Positions 3,418-13,418 are shown, counted from the stretch's first letter. The stretch is DNA of 64,000 bases from a virus (IMGVR_UViG_3300033553_000116:50247-114246), one strand, 5' to 3'. Notes: generated by a model from the sequence alone, not told the origin. A program made the numbers and translations.

Positions 3418-4251
3418 ATGCGACAGTATTTAGAAGGACTACAACGTATCTTAGATGAAGGTACGTTTCATGGAGATAGAACAGGCACAGGTACTATCTC
3501 TCGTTTCGGGGAGCAGTTACGTTTTGATTTGACAGATGGTCTCCCATTGGTCACTACTAAGTTCACAAACTTCCGTGCCATTCAGCGTGAACTACTTTGG
3601 TTCCTTGAAGGCTCTACTAATAGCATCCGGTTAAATGAAATCGGTTCTAAGATCTGGGATGGCTGGGCTTTAGATGATGGTGACTTAGGGCCTATCTATG
3701 GTAAGCAATGGACTGACTGGGATGTCATCGACAAAGGTGAGGTAGTAACTGATCTGGAGGCTCTTTTAGAACTTTCTCAAGATGGTACTAGATTAGATGA
3801 ACTTAGTCTTAATATCAGTTCTATTTTAGATAAGATTGCACTTAAGCCAAATATCAATCAGATCCAACAGGTCATTGAAGACTTGCGTGTGAATCCACAT
3901 TCAAGACGTCATTTAGTTACTGCATGGAACCCATCTGCATTGCCATCTGAATATAAACTAACCATGACTAACGGTAAAGTTATTAAAGCTCCACTTACAC
4001 CACAGGGTAACGTTGCAGAAGGTAAAGCTGCATTGCCTGCATGTCATACCTTCTTCCAGTTCTACTCTCGACTAATGTGTCTTGAAGAGCGTATGAATTA
4101 TATCCCGGCTTCTAAAGTAGGGTTATATGCAAAGATCGTGGAATTCGATGAAGTATCAGCTCAGCCATTCTTAGATGACACTGAGGCCATGGCTTTATTA
4201 GATGAGCATGATGTTCCTAAACATGCACTAAGTTGTCAGATGTATCAGCGT
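3418..4251 (+). CDS. thyA: Thymidylate synthase, exon 1
   Basis: MRQYLE..DRTGTGT..LPLVTTK..ELLWFL..IWDGW..LGPIYGKQW..SRRHLVTAWNP..LPACHTFFQF..LSCQMYQR; ends at CGT before the intron. Confidence 0.95.
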
Positions 4252-4583
4252 TCACATAACGAGCGCCTTTTAGCAGTAATGCTAATCGAAGAACATTCTC
4301 AAATTGCTGGGAAATCTTGCTAAGCATTTACACCACAACGTAATTTGAAAAAAATAAGCGTGACGGTTTTAAAAAGTTAAATGATAGAGATAATCAGCAG
4401 CCAAGGGTCCATATAGGATCAAGGTTCAACGACTAGCCTTTGATAAGGTGTAGGACCAAGTGGTCCGAAACGGGAAAGCTTCCTACTCATAGAGAGGAAG
4501 GTGATATAGTCTACTCTGCATGGTGACATGCAGCTGCACGTAATGGTGCGGGTAGTGTCTAACGAACACTATTGAATATAACG
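4252..4583 (+). mobile_element. Group I intron (IA2-like, no ORF), 332 nt
   Basis: P (AATTGCTGGGAA), Q (AATCAGCAG), R (GTTCAACGACTA) and S (GATATAGTCT) elements; P1 GCGU|UC pairs with GAGCGC giving the U.G splice site; terminal G 4583; P10 UCG/CGA; extra P7.1/P7.2 hairpins; splicing restores QR-SSDSLLGQPFN. Confidence 0.93.
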
Positions 4584-9799: not shown

Positions 9800-9824
9800 T
9801 CACACCTATATTACTATAGTGTAT
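9800..9824 (+). promoter_or_regulatory. phiKZ-type early promoter
   Basis: TCACACCTATATTACTATAGTGTAT. Confidence 0.7.
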
Positions 9825-9890
9825 AACAACCTAGTTATCTTCACCACGAAGAATAGCTAATATAACAGAATTAATTAATGGAGAAATAAC

Positions 9891-11111
9891 ATGTCAGATT
9901 TTAATCTACTAGCTTCAGCAATAGCGGATCTGTGCAATGATGGTAATGTACCACTTGGTGAAATAGTATCAACATCAGATATCTTAACGGCATTACCCAC
10001 GGATGTGGCGCGTATGTTTGAGACACCAACGGCCCTACGTTTAGCAATGACTAAGTTTGATACGTTATTAAATGTACATGGCTTTACATTTAGTCGTCCA
10101 TCTGCACACGTCTGGAAATTTAAAAAGATTGAACCATCCGAATCATCTACAGTACCTAATCCAGTTATAGGTATCCAGCAGCAATTAGATCGCATAGAAG
10201 AAACATTAGATGCCACCAACCAAACGGCTCAGCATAATCGAGAGACTGCTGATACAAACTATTCAGTTCTAGCAACTGGCATTGCCGATATACTTAAAAT
10301 GGTAAAACATATTAATATTTCCACTGCAAAAAGAGATGACATGGGTAGTCTCGCAGACCTTGCTCTCGACTTGGATGCTAAAGCCGTAAAGACTAGTGAG
10401 TTAGTAATGGACCAACTTAGTAAGGCAGATGCTTGGAAAGCAGAATTGCGCGCTATGACAAAACATGCTAATAATGCTGTGGCTGGTATGCAAATAGGGT
10501 TAGATAGCCATATAGCAGCAACTGCTAAACATCAAGACTGGTTATATAGCGCCACTATACAACATCATGAGAACTATATGGGTGGACTTGGAGTGGTGGA
10601 AGGTAATATCAAGCAACACTTTTCTAACTTAGTGGAAGGCATTGGTCGACCACTATCTAACCCACTAGCCAGTATGTCTCAGGCTAAATATAAAAGATCC
10701 TCACCACATTCAAAAGTAGATATAGTGAAAACTGGTAATATTACTACCTTTCGTGGTCTGGCACATAGTGGTCGTACAACAGAGATGCTACATTATTTGG
10801 TAAACCGACGTATTGGAATTGCCAATCAGATACTTTATATCTCTAATGGTGTATCTCCCGATAAAATGTGGAAGGATGTTAATGACACATCTAGGCAGAT
10901 GGGCTTAGATAACCTACCACATGGTAATGTGAAATGTATTTCTATAAACTATAATGTACCCTACGGCAGTGAAGACCTAGCAGATATAATCCGTAGACAC
11001 TCTAACTACATAGTGTTTTTCGATATCCCTATGTCACCCTACAGTAATCTTTTATGGTGGGATGCCAATTTCCATGACCGTGAAGTATATATCACAGAGC
11101 CATTTATATAA
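9891..11111 (+). CDS. Coiled-coil protein with C-terminal degenerate P-loop-like domain
   Basis: 406 aa; heptad-rich middle; GLAHSGRTT resembles Walker A with K>R; IVFFD resembles Walker B. Confidence 0.6.
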   Translation: MSDFNLLASAIADLCNDGNVPLGEIVSTSDILTALPTDVARMFETPTALRLAMTKFDTLLNVHGFTFSRPSAHVWKFKKIEPSESSTVPNPVIGIQQQLDRIEETLDATNQTAQHNRETADTNYSVLATGIADILKMVKHINISTAKRDDMGSLADLALDLDAKAVKTSELVMDQLSKADAWKAELRAMTKHANNAVAGMQIGLDSHIAATAKHQDWLYSATIQHHENYMGGLGVVEGNIKQHFSNLVEGIGRPLSNPLASMSQAKYKRSSPHSKVDIVKTGNITTFRGLAHSGRTTEMLHYLVNRRIGIANQILYISNGVSPDKMWKDVNDTSRQMGLDNLPHGNVKCISINYNVPYGSEDLADIIRRHSNYIVFFDIPMSPYSNLLWWDANFHDREVYITEPFI

Positions 11112-11189
11112 ACCATTATTAAGTATTTTTATACTTCTAAACCTATATTGTGTAGAAAGTTTATTTCTTCTCCTTAAAGTTAAAGTTAA

Positions 11190-11428
11190 AGCCGTTGGGT
11201 TGTCCAAGTCAACCCAACACCTAATTCCCTCCACCCCCTTGTGGAATGATGCAATGACCTAAGCATTTAAATGTTGACTTATGTTAACTAAGAGGTAACT
11301 CTACATCTACGGATATAGTTTTAAACGCAAGATACCCCAGAACTTCCTTATGAGTTGTGGGTCACTATCTTGAGGGCTGACGCGGAGCGACCGTGTCCGG
11401 AAGATATGCCTTGACCAACTTCCACCCA
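11190..11428 (+). ncRNA. Candidate structured ncRNA unit 1 (ends in pseudoknot motif A)
   Basis: No credible ORF; multiple stems (GTTGGGTTG/CAACCCAAC, CAAGATA/TATCTTG, GACGCGG/CCGTGTC, GGAAG/CTTCC); 5' boundary uncertain. Confidence 0.5.
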
Positions 11429-11431
11429 TTC

Positions 11432-11685
11432 AATGTATTAGTATCTAGCAATGATTTACCTCGACGTCTAGGTGCTAGTACATTAATCGGGGGATTGCCC
11501 TCCTCGTTATTTCGTTTGCGGACGATTAAGTTGGGCAGTATGAGTTACATGTACCCAAATAGGGATAATCACTATGTGTAAACAAATCGTTGGGCGCTTT
11601 ATTAATGCGTCGGTCCGGGGACTAGATCGCCGGTGAAAGGCTGCACCCATAATGTTGGTGCTGGGGGAGTTAGCCTACCCCCACC
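11432..11685 (+). ncRNA. Candidate structured ncRNA unit 2 (ends in pseudoknot motif C)
   Basis: Stems AATGTATTAG/CTAGTACATT, TGCCC/GGGCA, CCGG/CCGG, GCACC/GGTGC, TGGGGG/CCCCCA; ends 9 nt before tRNA-Asn. Confidence 0.5.
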
Positions 11686-11694
11686 TTATTTTAT

Positions 11695-11769
11695 TCCGAA
11701 GTAGCTCAGTGGTAGAGCAGAAGCCTGTTAAGCTTTTGGCCGTTGGTTCGACCCCAACCTTCGGAGCCA
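11695..11769 (+). tRNA. tRNA-Asn(GTT)
   Basis: TCCGAAG/CTTCGGA acceptor, GCTC/GAGC D-stem, CTGTTAA anticodon loop, GGTTCGAC T-arm, encoded GCCA. Confidence 0.95.
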
Positions 11770-11776
11770 CACAACG

Positions 11777-11850
11777 TCGGACATAGCTCAGTTGGGAGAG
11801 CGGCACCTTTGCGGGTGTGATTGTCGCAGGTTCAATCCCTGCTGTCTGAC
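11777..11850 (+). tRNA. Atypical tRNA or pseudo-tRNA (Ala-like, TGC in a 6-nt loop)
   Basis: TCGGACA/TGTCTGA acceptor with G3.U70; canonical D and T arms; GCACC/GGTGT stem closes TTTGCG; 7-nt variable region; no CCA. Confidence 0.7.
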
Positions 11851-11855
11851 ACTTC

Positions 11856-12126
11856 ATTTTCACTTATGGTAACAAGGGTTTACTGTCATTTACCTGCATC
11901 CGCCCTAAGTGAAAATTATTCTGTATGGACTTCTACGGAAGTTTGACTTACAGCTAGCTCCTGGAATGAGAATTAACTCATTGTACGTTTACCCCCGGTA
12001 GTTAGATAAATCCAAGTGGTTCTAGTTTGGTCTTGCAATCCATTAACACCCCCTAAGTAAGTGCTGTTCATAAGAGGCTGGTGTACCTTACGTACTCCGT
12101 GGAAGATGTGCCTTAACTTCCACCCA
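11856..12126 (+). ncRNA. Candidate structured ncRNA unit 3 (ends in pseudoknot motif B)
   Basis: ATTTTCACTTA/TAAGTGAAAAT, ACTTC/GAAGT, AATGAG/CTCATT, GTAC/GTAC, GTGGAAG/CTTCCAC stems; followed by terminator. Confidence 0.5.
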
Positions 12127-12132
12127 TTCATT

Positions 12133-12175
12133 AGCCAGTCACATTGCGTGACTGGCTTATTTATATATTTTTTTA
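12133..12175 (+). terminator. Terminator closing the RNA island
   Basis: AGCCAGTCAC-ATTGC-GTGACTGGCT then T-rich tail. Confidence 0.8.
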
Positions 12176-12196
12176 TCTTATTGCTTGGAGTTGACA

Positions 12197-12385
12197 ATGA
12201 ATAATGTGGTAAATATTACCAGAGCAGCAGATAGACTAGCTGTAAAAAATAGAGAAGCTTGGGAAAGATTGCAGCCCTTTATTAATATGATTCAAGATGT
12301 ACGTAAGGGTAACCGAACGGCTAAAGAACAAGAAACAGTCCAGGCTCAAAGAAAGGGAAAGTTCCTATGGCTAAACAACACATAA
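12197..12385 (+). CDS. Small hypothetical protein
   Basis: GGAG SD before ATG 12197. Confidence 0.55.
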   Translation: MNNVVNITRAADRLAVKNREAWERLQPFINMIQDVRKGNRTAKEQETVQAQRKGKFLWLNNT

Positions 12386-12686: not shown

Positions 12687-13418
12687 ATGAGTTCTAAATT
12701 GACATTAAAGAAATATACTATCGACCCTATAGCCCAAGAAGAAGTTGCTTCTTTAGAGGATATGGAGAATGCTAGATGTACTACCCAGCATTCCTTGTTT
12801 GTTACAGAAGTGGAAGGTGTTCAACACTTCAAACTACATCTAGAGGACATCATGCCTGAGAAAGCGGCATTCCATGTGATACTTAATAGATTATCTCAAG
12901 CACAACAGGGTGATACGTTGGAATTACGTATACATAGCAATGGCGGCAGTACTGATATTGGTCAGATTATTATTAACATGATTAATAATGTATTTCCTGG
13001 TCGAGCTACTGCAGTCTTGGATAACATGGGTAAATCAATGGGTGCTATTATTTTCTGTAATTGTCCTAAACGTATTGTGAATGTAAATTCAGACATCATG
13101 TTCCATTGGTATAGTGTAGGAGTTAGTGGTAAAGGAAATGAAGTCACTAGTAGCATTGATCGAGCAAACGAAGCACTTAGGGATTTATACCAACGTTCAA
13201 TGGTTGATACGGGTTTTCTAACACAGGAAGAAGTCGATAGATTGTACGATGGTAAGGATTACCCATTCGGCACAGTAGAGATGTGTCAACGTGGCATTGC
13301 TACACATGTACTAGTCAGAGGTATTGAAATCCCTGCAGTACAATACTTAGGATACAAGTCTGAATCATTAACAGATGATGACATGGTTATATCCTATCAC
13401 AGTGAAAGAAATATTTAA
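12687..13418 (+). CDS. ClpP-like serine protease (S14/S49 fold)
   Basis: LRIHSNGGS, GKSMGAIIF (catalytic Ser), IMFH (His). Confidence 0.8.
   Translation: MSSKLTLKKYTIDPIAQEEVASLEDMENARCTTQHSLFVTEVEGVQHFKLHLEDIMPEKAAFHVILNRLSQAQQGDTLELRIHSNGGSTDIGQIIINMINNVFPGRATAVLDNMGKSMGAIIFCNCPKRIVNVNSDIMFHWYSVGVSGKGNEVTSSIDRANEALRDLYQRSMVDTGFLTQEEVDRLYDGKDYPFGTVEMCQRGIATHVLVRGIEIPAVQYLGYKSESLTDDDMVISYHSERNI

What the first reader, a model, noticed from the sequence alone, without database searches (positions are those of the whole stretch)
11190..12126. Three ~250-270-nt structured RNAs around the tRNAs, all ending in one covarying pseudoknot motif
Seen: a ~1.1-kb island with no credible ORF contains three copies of the architecture (A/G)GGCT-[variable hairpin]-stem-A-N3/4-GCCT-...-stem-ACC. 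Copy A 11373-11428: AGGGCT GACGCGG/CCGTGTC, GGAAG atat GCCTT gaccaa CTTCC ACCCA. Copy C 11638-11685: AGGCT GCACC/GGTGC, GGGGG agtt AGCCT a CCCCC ACC. Copy B 12074-12126: GAGGCT GGTGTAC/GTACTCC, GGAAG atgt GCCTT aa CTTCC ACCCA. The terminal stem covaries (GGAAG/CTTCC vs GGGGG/CCCCC), the middle hairpin changes sequence but keeps pairing, and the loop GCCT can form a 5-bp pseudoknot with the upstream AGGC in all three. The copies divide the island into similar-sized, hairpin-rich units that end just before the next unit, tRNA-Asn, or the terminator. Units 2 and 3 share ATTTACCT in their first hairpin. Inference: a paralogous family of phage ncRNAs with variable 5' bodies and a conserved 3' handle ending in a tRNA-like ACC, processed from the tRNA transcript. 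Possible roles are decoy, guide/scaffold or 3'-protection. I cannot match it to any RNA family I know; GOLLD and ROOL are precedents for large tRNA-associated phage RNAs.
Basis: partly seen in the sequence, partly recalled or inferred. Interest (0 to 1): 0.85.

Follow-up and report, generated by a model that had tools for sequence, protein, structure and literature searches.

The report
Orphan three-copy RNA module, phage tRNA island
A giant phage from a cold spring carries, around its two tRNA genes, three copies of a small folded RNA module that matches no known RNA family; it looks like a mimic of the end of a tRNA, but I found it in no other genome, so its function is still a hypothesis.

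Summary
The 1.07-kb gene-free island (11112-12184) of this phiKZ-like jumbo-phage fragment holds three same-strand copies of a ~55-nt module. In order, each has RGGCU, a 7-bp hairpin with a 5-nt loop, 1-2 nt, a 5-bp stem whose loop carries GCCU, then ACC. Both hairpins keep pairing through double changes: 8 of 12 pairs, 94% of cells paired against 42-54% in shifted controls. A structure descriptor finds only these three sites in both strands of the 114-kb record.

The pseudoknot (GGC with GCC, 5 bp in each copy) is conserved, not covarying. A nested pairing of GG with the CC of ACC competes with it.

The three "bodies" are not homologous, and no transcript end is shown, so "three 250-270-nt RNAs" is unproven.

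I found no match in Rfam, IMG/VR, JGI metagenomes, GTDB genomes, the five nearest cultured phages or the T4 tRNA region.

Best reading (about 0.35): tRNA acceptor-arm mimics. A pseudoknotted mini-helix with G+1, a pyrimidine at -1 and ACC recruits RNase P and CCA-type enzymes, which cut a tRNA/ncRNA co-transcript into stable pieces.

This scan noted the element before only in overlapping windows of this same genome.

The parts
11112..12184 (+). Gene-free island, the largest non-coding gap of the 114-kb record. It holds the three modules and two tRNA genes.
   Evidence: ORF lists and gap table. GC is 42-51% against 35-40% in the flanks.
11373..11428 (+). Module A: a AGGGC 11373-77; hairpin H 11379-97 (7 bp, loop AGCGA); linker C; S2 GGAAG 11399-403 / CUUCC 11419-23; loop 15 nt with GCCUU 11408-12; ACC 11424-26, then CA.
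11637..11688 (+). Module C: a AGGCU 11638-42; H 11643-61 (7 bp with one C.U, loop UAAUG); linker U; S2 GGGGG 11663-67 / CCCCC 11678-82; loop 10 nt with AGCCU 11672-76; ACC 11683-85. tRNA-Asn starts 9 nt later.
   Evidence: (found by a model built without it).
12074..12126 (+). Module B: a GAGGC 12074-78; H 12080-98 (7 bp with one U.U, loop CUUAC); linker GU; S2 GGAAG 12101-05 / CUUCC 12117-21 (extendable to 7 bp); loop 11 nt with GCCUU 12110-14; ACC 12122-24, then CA.
11695..11769 (+). tRNA-Asn (GUU) with encoded CCA.
   Evidence: ARAGORN; Rfam tRNA 70.9 bits.
11776..11852 (+). tRNA-like gene with a 6-nt anticodon loop (UUUGCG) and no encoded CCA.
   Evidence: ARAGORN 'tRNA-???'; Rfam tRNA 44.4 bits, with an irregular anticodon arm in the alignment.
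11193..11219 (+). 9-bp hairpin at the start of 'unit 1'.
   Evidence: No U-run follows it on the + strand.
11432..11484 (+). Long (about 17-bp) hairpin that opens 'unit 2', 5 nt after the ACC of module A.
   Evidence: Minimum-energy fold; sequence.
11856..11916 (+). 14-bp hairpin that opens 'unit 3', 3 nt after the second tRNA.
   Evidence: Inverted repeat I2; fold.
12133..12165 (+). Intrinsic terminator (10-bp stem plus T-run), 6 nt after module B.
9806..9825 (+). Copy of the phage's 20-nt early-type promoter consensus (CTATATTACTATAGTG...) in front of gene 9891-11111. It is the nearest strong promoter upstream of the island.
   Evidence: Position-weight-matrix scan, score 40.1, 11-13 sites in the record. 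No terminator is predicted on the + strand between 11111 and the island.

Best explanation
Each module is a mimic of the tRNA acceptor arm. It sits in a roughly 1-kb non-coding transcript that also carries the two tRNAs.

The proposed fold: the 3' stem S2 (G-C first pair) stacks on a 5-bp helix formed between its loop (GCCU) and the upstream GGC strand. This gives a 10-12-bp mini-helix followed by single-stranded ACC, with hairpin H projecting from loop 1.

The proposed mechanism: the host's tRNA-maturation enzymes read this like a pre-tRNA end. RNase P pairs its GGU loop with ACC and cuts just 5' of S2, after the pyrimidine at -1. 3' trimming and the CCA-adding enzyme finish the ACC end. The co-transcript is thereby cut into discrete, hairpin-capped stable RNAs, as tRNAs punctuate other operons.

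Shown: the three copies, the two covarying hairpins, the conserved complementary GGC/GCC blocks, the conserved ACC, G+1 and pyrimidine -1, and the position of each copy directly before the next structured element.

Inferred: the pseudoknot, co-transcription, every enzymatic step, and what the released RNAs do.
For: (1) The module is real and under selection for structure. Between A and B the 34-nt 3' half differs by 1 substitution and one 4-nt indel. H differs at most of its 19 positions yet keeps 6-7 pairs. That is not neutral drift.

(2) The only conserved single-stranded blocks 5' of H (GGCU) and inside the S2 loop (GCCU) are complementary, giving 5 bp in every copy. In C the helix is shifted by one position but its length is kept (alignment).

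(3) G.U pairs in H of copy A and in the pseudoknot of A and B would be A.C mismatches on the other strand. So the tRNA strand is the folded one.

(4) All copies have G as the first S2 base, C or U just before it, and A-C-C right after the stem. These are the determinants of bacterial RNase P substrates. H-type pseudoknots with a 3' RCC(A) tail are cut by RNase P in loop 1, and the tRNA-like ends of TYMV and TMV are also substrates (PMC12710915).

(5) Context: same strand as the two tRNAs, 9 nt before tRNA-Asn, 5 nt before the next long hairpin, and 6 nt before the terminator. No strong internal promoter was found.

(6) Precedent: T4 makes two stable RNAs (rnaC, rnaD) from its tRNA cluster, and rnaD ends in ACCA.
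Against: No homologue outside this genome was found, so nothing beyond three paralogs supports the fold.

The pseudoknot has no true compensatory change. In copy C only 1 nt links its 3' strand to S2.

A competing nested helix pairs the GG of GGCU with the CC of ACC (3, 2 and 4 bp in A, B and C). It appears in the minimum-energy folds of A and C, and it would bury the ACC.

In B, S2 can extend to 7 bp using A and the first C of ACC.

No T-loop or any other tRNA feature is present, and no tRNA or TLS model matches even at E 10.

A and B read ACCCA and C reads ACCUU, so none encodes a clean ACCA.

The 114-kb fragment has no CCA-adding enzyme gene.

The host, and therefore its RNase P type, is unknown.
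Confidence: 0.35

Rival explanations
1. The modules are the true 3' ends (stability or identity handles) of three separate ncRNAs. Exonucleases stop at the knotted fold, ACC is completed to ACCA, and the variable bodies or hairpin H carry the function (decoy, guide or scaffold).
For: Same structural evidence as the best explanation. Each module is followed within 3-9 nt by a long 5' hairpin, a tRNA or the terminator. H varies freely in sequence while the rest is held, as a specificity element would.
Against: The bodies are not homologous, and two of the three fold no better than shuffles. H sequences have only chance-level (9-10 nt) matches elsewhere in the record. No ends are mapped. B is followed by a normal terminator, so its ACC would need further trimming.
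Confidence: 0.2
2. One long ncRNA, or the tRNA precursor itself, carries three copies of a binding site for a phage or host protein or a small ligand. The conserved GGCU, A..U-GCCU and ACC bases are contacts, not tRNA mimicry.
For: There are few conserved single-stranded bases on a variable helical frame, repeated three times in one transcription unit.
Against: No candidate RNA-binding gene is evident beside the island. The flanking 406-aa, 66-aa and 84-aa proteins have no family, and the Atlas gives only weak P-loop ATPase hints. The complementarity of the two conserved blocks would be a coincidence.
Confidence: 0.15
3. The module folds as a nested three-way junction (closing helix GG:CC of 'ACC', hairpin H, stem S2) with no pseudoknot. 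The ACC is conserved because it is paired, not because it mimics a tRNA end.
For: The minimum-energy folds of A and C use this closing helix. The pair next to GG:CC changes from G-C in A to A-U in C.
Against: The helix is only 3, 2 and 4 bp, with an A.C mismatch in B, against 5 bp for the pseudoknot in every copy. It leaves the conservation of GCCU in the loop unexplained.
Confidence: 0.15
4. The element acts at the DNA or transcription level: a promoter or terminator module of the phage RNA polymerases, or a recombination repeat. Alternatively it is a decaying duplicate with no function.
For: The loop of A reads TATGCC, like the TATG(CC) late-type motifs that follow many terminator hairpins in this phage and like the phiKZ late promoter (PMC4666361).
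Against: B has TGTG and C has TTAG at that place. All TATG contexts in the island score low against the phage's own intergenic TATG sites. No U-run follows the hairpins of A and C. Compensatory changes and G.U pairs point to selection on + strand RNA.
Confidence: 0.1

Closest known systems
Pseudoknotted acceptor arm of plant-virus tRNA-like structures (TYMV and TMV 3' ends), and model H-type pseudoknot substrates of RNase P
   Same: A 3' hairpin whose loop pairs with an upstream strand, followed by single-stranded (R)CC. Such folds are cut by bacterial RNase P in loop 1 (PMC12710915).
   Different: The element is in a DNA phage and inside a transcript, not at a genome end. A 19-nt hairpin sits in loop 1. 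There is no T-loop, D-loop or anticodon mimic and no clean CCA. No Rfam TLS model matches. The pseudoknot is unproven.
Phage T4 stable RNAs rnaC and rnaD (species 1 and 2)
   Same: Non-coding RNAs of unknown function encoded next to tRNA genes in a phage. rnaD ends in ACCA.
   Different: The module model does not match the T4 region (best E 1.3). rnaC contains a GGTTCGAATCC T-arm-like hairpin (read from the sequence), which these modules lack. The T4 RNAs are 119 and 139 nt, and I saw no shared module in them.
GOLLD and ROOL large RNAs of phages and prophages
   Same: Structured non-coding RNA in a phage.
   Different: No Rfam match even at E 10. Here the conserved part is a 55-nt module repeated three times, and the bodies are unrelated to each other.
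Type III antitoxin RNAs (ToxI-like repeats)
   Same: Repeated pseudoknot-forming RNA units processed from one transcript; phages can carry mimics (from my own knowledge).
   Different: ToxI units are about 36 nt and directly tandem (from my own knowledge). Here the spacing is 264 and 438 nt with tRNAs in between. No ToxN match was found in the 114 kb, but that search rang in no control genome, so it is uninformative.

Membership tests
Any Rfam 15 family | Covariance-model score at or above the gathering threshold | tested here: not met
   Only the two tRNAs and a group I intron pass in the window. At E up to 10 the island gives only spurious Qrr, YrlA and Plastid-ycf2 matches.
tRNA (RF00005) | Cloverleaf with a T-loop and an acceptor stem formed by the 5' and 3' ends | tested here: not met
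   The modules are not found by ARAGORN or the tRNA model. They have no significant similarity to the two tRNAs.
Viral tRNA-like structures (TLS) | Pseudoknotted acceptor stem ending in CC(A) | tested here: inconclusive
   5-bp GGC/GCC complementarity and ACC occur in all three copies. There is no compensatory change, and a nested rival pairing exists.
Viral tRNA-like structures (TLS) | T-loop/D-loop elbow and anticodon-arm mimic; aminoacylation | tested here: not met
   No T-loop motif and no TLS model match. Aminoacylation cannot be tested here.
RNase P substrates (functional class) | Helix with G+1, pyrimidine at -1 and 3' RCC that pairs with the GGU loop of RNase P RNA | tested here: met
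   Positions read from the alignment, with criteria from PMC12710915. This is sequence only.
RNase P substrates (functional class) | Actual cleavage by RNase P | not testable with these tools
   Needs an enzyme assay.
T4 rnaC/rnaD-type stable RNAs | Homology to the T4 RNAs | tested here: not met
   Model R2 on the T4 tRNA region gives a best E of 1.3.
T4 rnaC/rnaD-type stable RNAs | Encoded within a phage tRNA cluster | tested here: met
   The modules are on the same strand as the two tRNAs and flank them.
Type III toxin-antitoxin RNA (ToxI) | Short direct tandem repeats next to a ToxN-family gene | tested here: not met
   Spacing is 264 and 438 nt. The ToxN search found nothing, but its controls rang nowhere.

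The most novel reading that the evidence does not exclude
This is the first tRNA-acceptor mimic of the pseudoknot (TLS-like) type in a DNA phage. A nucleus-forming-type jumbo phage would use it to hijack host RNase P, the CCA-adding enzyme or aminoacylation enzymes. That would produce, stabilise or tag a set of ncRNAs whose variable hairpin H gives each a different specificity.
Probability: 0.15. Interest if true: 0.75.

Novelty: new variant of a known kind. Interest (0 to 1): 0.45.

Why it matters
Non-coding RNAs that ride in phage tRNA clusters have had no assigned function since the T4 species 1 and 2 RNAs (their annotation still says only 'small, stable RNA').

If this module mimics a tRNA end, it gives a concrete, testable mechanism for how a jumbo phage carves stable RNAs out of a tRNA transcript with host enzymes. 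It would also extend pseudoknot-type tRNA mimicry from plant RNA viruses to DNA phages.

If it is not a mimic, it is still a clean orphan RNA motif. Its hairpin is free in sequence but fixed in shape, and it would be worth adding to RNA-family libraries once relatives are sequenced.

Tried and rejected
**Homologue searches**
- Close relatives in IMG/VR via the head protease, the 406-aa upstream protein and the major capsid protein: none.
- Protease homologues in the 5.8-billion-protein collection: best 43-45% identity.
- Two distant IMG/VR loci found with a protease alignment have no tRNA and no module.
- The exact A/B motif in IMG/VR gave one hit, inside an ORF.
These patterns fix GGCUG, GG..G, GCCU and C..CCACC, so diverged relatives would be missed.
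- Model R2 on the five nearest cultured phiKZ-like genomes: nothing.
- The structure descriptor on their tRNA islands gave two hits, both inside annotated CDS.
- blastn of the island against 50,697 phage records hit only the tRNAs.

**Sequencing runs**
- Two DNA runs of one cold-spring study hold identical pieces without variants.
- No RNA holder is listed, and the one RNA run of that study holds none of the stretch. This is no evidence on expression.

**Other ideas tested**
- tRNA-derived origin of modules or bodies: not significant.
- Homology among bodies: U1-U3 z 3.0 over 40 nt; the other pairs are at chance.
- Internal promoters: no early-type site in the island, and the TATG contexts score low.
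- H sequences as guides: only 9-10-nt matches, as expected by chance.
- Reverse transcriptase, ToxN and CCA-adding enzyme genes in the 114 kb: none. The record is about 41% of a genome.
- Hammerhead, HDV-like and pistol topologies were considered by hand and do not fit the strand order. All have Rfam models, which did not match.

Full report
**Source and setting**

The window is bases 50247-114246 of a 114-kb IMG/VR virus record, estimated 41% complete, with 38% GC. Its 731-aa major head protein, split polymerase and other PHROG matches place it among phiKZ-like jumbo phages. The nearest cultured relative is Xanthomonas phage Xoo-sp14, at only 44% capsid identity. Two DNA runs of one cold-spring metagenome study hold identical pieces of the island.

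Coding density is about 91%. The stretch 11112-12184 is the largest gene-free gap of the record, and its GC rises to 42-51% against 35-40% beside it. It contains tRNA-Asn (11695-11769, with encoded CCA) and a second tRNA-like gene (11776-11852) with a 6-nt anticodon loop.

**The observation**

In order, each has:
- RGGCU;
- hairpin H, with no spacer, made of 7 bp and a 5-nt loop (19 nt in all three; one U.U in B, one C.U in C);
- a 1-2-nt linker ending in a pyrimidine;
- a 5-bp stem S2 (GGAAG/CUUCC in A and B, GGGGG/CCCCC in C);
- a 10-15-nt loop that starts with A, has GCCU after 4-5 nt, and ends with A;
- A-C-C.

Tests against chance:
- A regex for S2 + GCCU + ACC alone is not enriched (4 seen, 2.8 expected). 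With GGCU within 30 nt upstream it gives 3 hits against 0.19 expected.
- A descriptor that also asks for H and for loop-to-upstream complementarity hits only these three places in both strands of the 114 kb.
- A covariance model built from A and B alone finds C as the best other hit in the window (14 bits, E 0.059). C lies in the same 1-kb island on the same strand.
- A model of all three finds no fourth copy in the record.

On the model-guided alignment, 8 of 12 base pairs change on both sides, and 94% of cells pair against 42-54% when partners are slid by 1-3 columns. H needs no gaps between the conserved anchors, so this does not depend on the alignment being fitted to the structure.

The pattern of change is telling. 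From S2 through the tail (34 nt) A and B differ by one substitution and a 4-nt indel, while H differs at most positions yet stays paired. G.U pairs in H of copy A and in the proposed pseudoknot of A and B would be A.C on the opposite strand, so the folded strand is the tRNA strand.

**The pseudoknot**

The only conserved blocks 5' of H (GGCU) and inside the S2 loop (GCCU) are complementary and give 5 bp in each copy:
- A: C-G, G-C, G-C, G.U, A-U.
- B: C-G, G-C, G-C, A-U, G.U.
- C: shifted by one, U-A, C-G, G-C, G-C, A-U.

This is conservation with purine swaps and a register shift, not true covariation. In C only one base links the loop strand to S2, which limits the geometry.

A nested rival exists. 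The GG of GGCU can pair with the CC of ACC (3, 2 and 4 bp in A, B and C). RNAfold uses it for A and C, and the neighbouring pair goes from G-C in A to A-U in C. I rate the pseudoknot as more likely, because it gives 5 bp everywhere and explains the conserved GCCU. It is not shown.

**The "units"**

Each module ends 3-9 nt before a strongly structured element:
- A ends before a ~17-bp hairpin (11432-11484).
- C ends before tRNA-Asn.
- B ends before an intrinsic terminator (12133-12165).
- The second tRNA is likewise followed after 3 nt by a 14-bp hairpin (11856-11916).

The short spacers after A, after the second tRNA and after B share UUCA(A/U)U.

The bodies, however, are not homologous. U1-U3 reaches z 3.0 over 40 nt, and the other pairs are at chance. 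Only unit 1 folds clearly better than shuffles (z -4.4, against -1.5 and -0.8). None resembles the tRNAs. The shared ATTTACCT is what two 250-nt sequences share by chance.

So the repeated, selected thing is the 55-nt module. "Three 250-270-nt RNAs" remains a hypothesis.

**Transcription**

The phage has a sharp 20-nt early-type promoter consensus (CTATATTACTATAATGAATA; 11 near-identical sites plus 2 weaker ones). One sits at 9806 before gene 9891-11111.

The island has only a half-match (CTATATTGTG at about 11153), which scores below zero. Many terminator hairpins in the genome are followed by TTTATGCC-like motifs, which recalls the phiKZ late promoter TATG with +1 at the G (PMC4666361). The seven TATG sites in the island score low against the phage's own intergenic TATG contexts. 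Although the loop of A reads TATGCC, B and C do not.

No + strand terminator is predicted between gene 9891-11111 and the island, apart from a weak one inside unit 2. The simplest reading is one transcript that runs from the upstream gene through the island to the terminator at 12133-12165. This is inferred, not shown.

**Search for relatives**

Rfam 15 gives nothing for the modules, at gathering thresholds or at E up to 10. blastn against 50,697 phage records hits only the tRNAs.

The phage has no close relative. Two distant IMG/VR loci reached with a protease alignment have neither tRNAs nor the module.

Further negative searches:
- Model R2 finds nothing in the five nearest cultured genomes or in the T4 tRNA/rnaC/rnaD region.
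- Degenerate patterns scanned over IMG/VR, JGI metagenomes and GTDB genomes returned 43, 24, 19 and at least 120 places. All lack H and/or lie in long ORFs.
- The sequence-free descriptor on the relatives' tRNA islands gave two hits, both inside annotated CDS.

So I could find no relative in which to test covariation. These pattern scans would miss diverged relatives, so absence is not proven.

**What it most likely is**

The features that all three copies keep are a helix starting with G, a pyrimidine just before it, and single-stranded A-C-C just after it. They are the classical determinants of bacterial RNase P substrates, in which the RCC of the substrate pairs with the GGU loop of the ribozyme. 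H-type pseudoknots carrying such a tail are cut in loop 1, and the pseudoknotted tRNA-like ends of TYMV and TMV are substrates too (PMC12710915).

S2 plus the GGC/GCC helix would give a 10-12-bp stack, about the length of the acceptor/T-arm helix. Together with the position in a tRNA operon and the T4 precedent of stable RNAs made from the tRNA cluster (rnaD ends in ACCA), I favour tRNA-end mimicry. In this model the modules serve as punctuation or 3'-end-defining marks read by host tRNA-maturation enzymes. My confidence is about 0.35.

The rivals are given in the rival explanations with their tests:
- a pure 3' stability handle of three separate RNAs;
- a repeated protein- or ligand-binding site;
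- a nested three-way junction with a paired ACC;
- a DNA- or transcription-level element.

The 114-kb fragment has no reverse transcriptase and no CCA-adding enzyme. The ToxN search also found nothing, but its controls rang nowhere. The neighbouring proteins have no family.

**Verdict**

This is a real, selected, three-copy RNA module that is not in Rfam and that I found only in this phage. The family is new. The kind (structured RNA in a phage tRNA cluster, possibly a tRNA-end mimic) has precedents. The function is unproven. Earlier notes of this scan on the element all come from overlapping windows of the same genome, and none comes from other DNA.

Noticed in passing
window 11776-11852: The second tRNA-like gene has good D and T arms, but its anticodon stem closes a 6-nt loop (UUUGCG, would-be anticodon UGC). 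It has no encoded CCA. ARAGORN calls it 'tRNA-???' and Rfam gives 44 bits.
   Followed up: partly
window 3418-4571: A group I intron (Rfam 75 bits, 4242-4533) interrupts a thymidylate synthase gene. The ORF 3418-4323 matches only the first ~154 of 266 profile positions. This is the same arrangement as the T4 td intron.
   Followed up: partly
whole record; e.g. window 736, 1969, 9806, 21498: A sharp 20-nt promoter-like consensus, CTATATTACTATAATGAATA, occurs 11 times nearly unchanged, plus 2 weaker copies. All are on the + strand in front of genes. It probably marks the early (virion RNA polymerase) promoters of this phage.
   Followed up: partly
many intergenic sites, e.g. window ~5850, ~21000, ~27850, ~34300, ~37200, ~59500: GC-rich terminator hairpins are followed directly by TTTATGCC-like motifs. 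These look like combined terminator and late-promoter junctions (phiKZ late promoters are TATG with +1 at the G).
   Followed up: partly
window 11179-11222: The start of the island resembles the anticodon-to-T-arm part of the neighbouring tRNA-Asn (27 nt, 70% identity) and forms a 9-bp hairpin. It could be a decayed tRNA copy, but the similarity is not significant (p about 0.07).
   Followed up: partly
window 12299-12308: A 10-nt stretch in the small ORF just downstream of the island is complementary to hairpin H of module B. This is at the level expected by chance.
   Followed up: no
window 12687-13418: The head-maturation protease next to the island is of the ClpP type (PF00574). Its nearest relatives in 5.8 billion proteins are only 43-45% identical, which shows how isolated this phage is.
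   Followed up: partly
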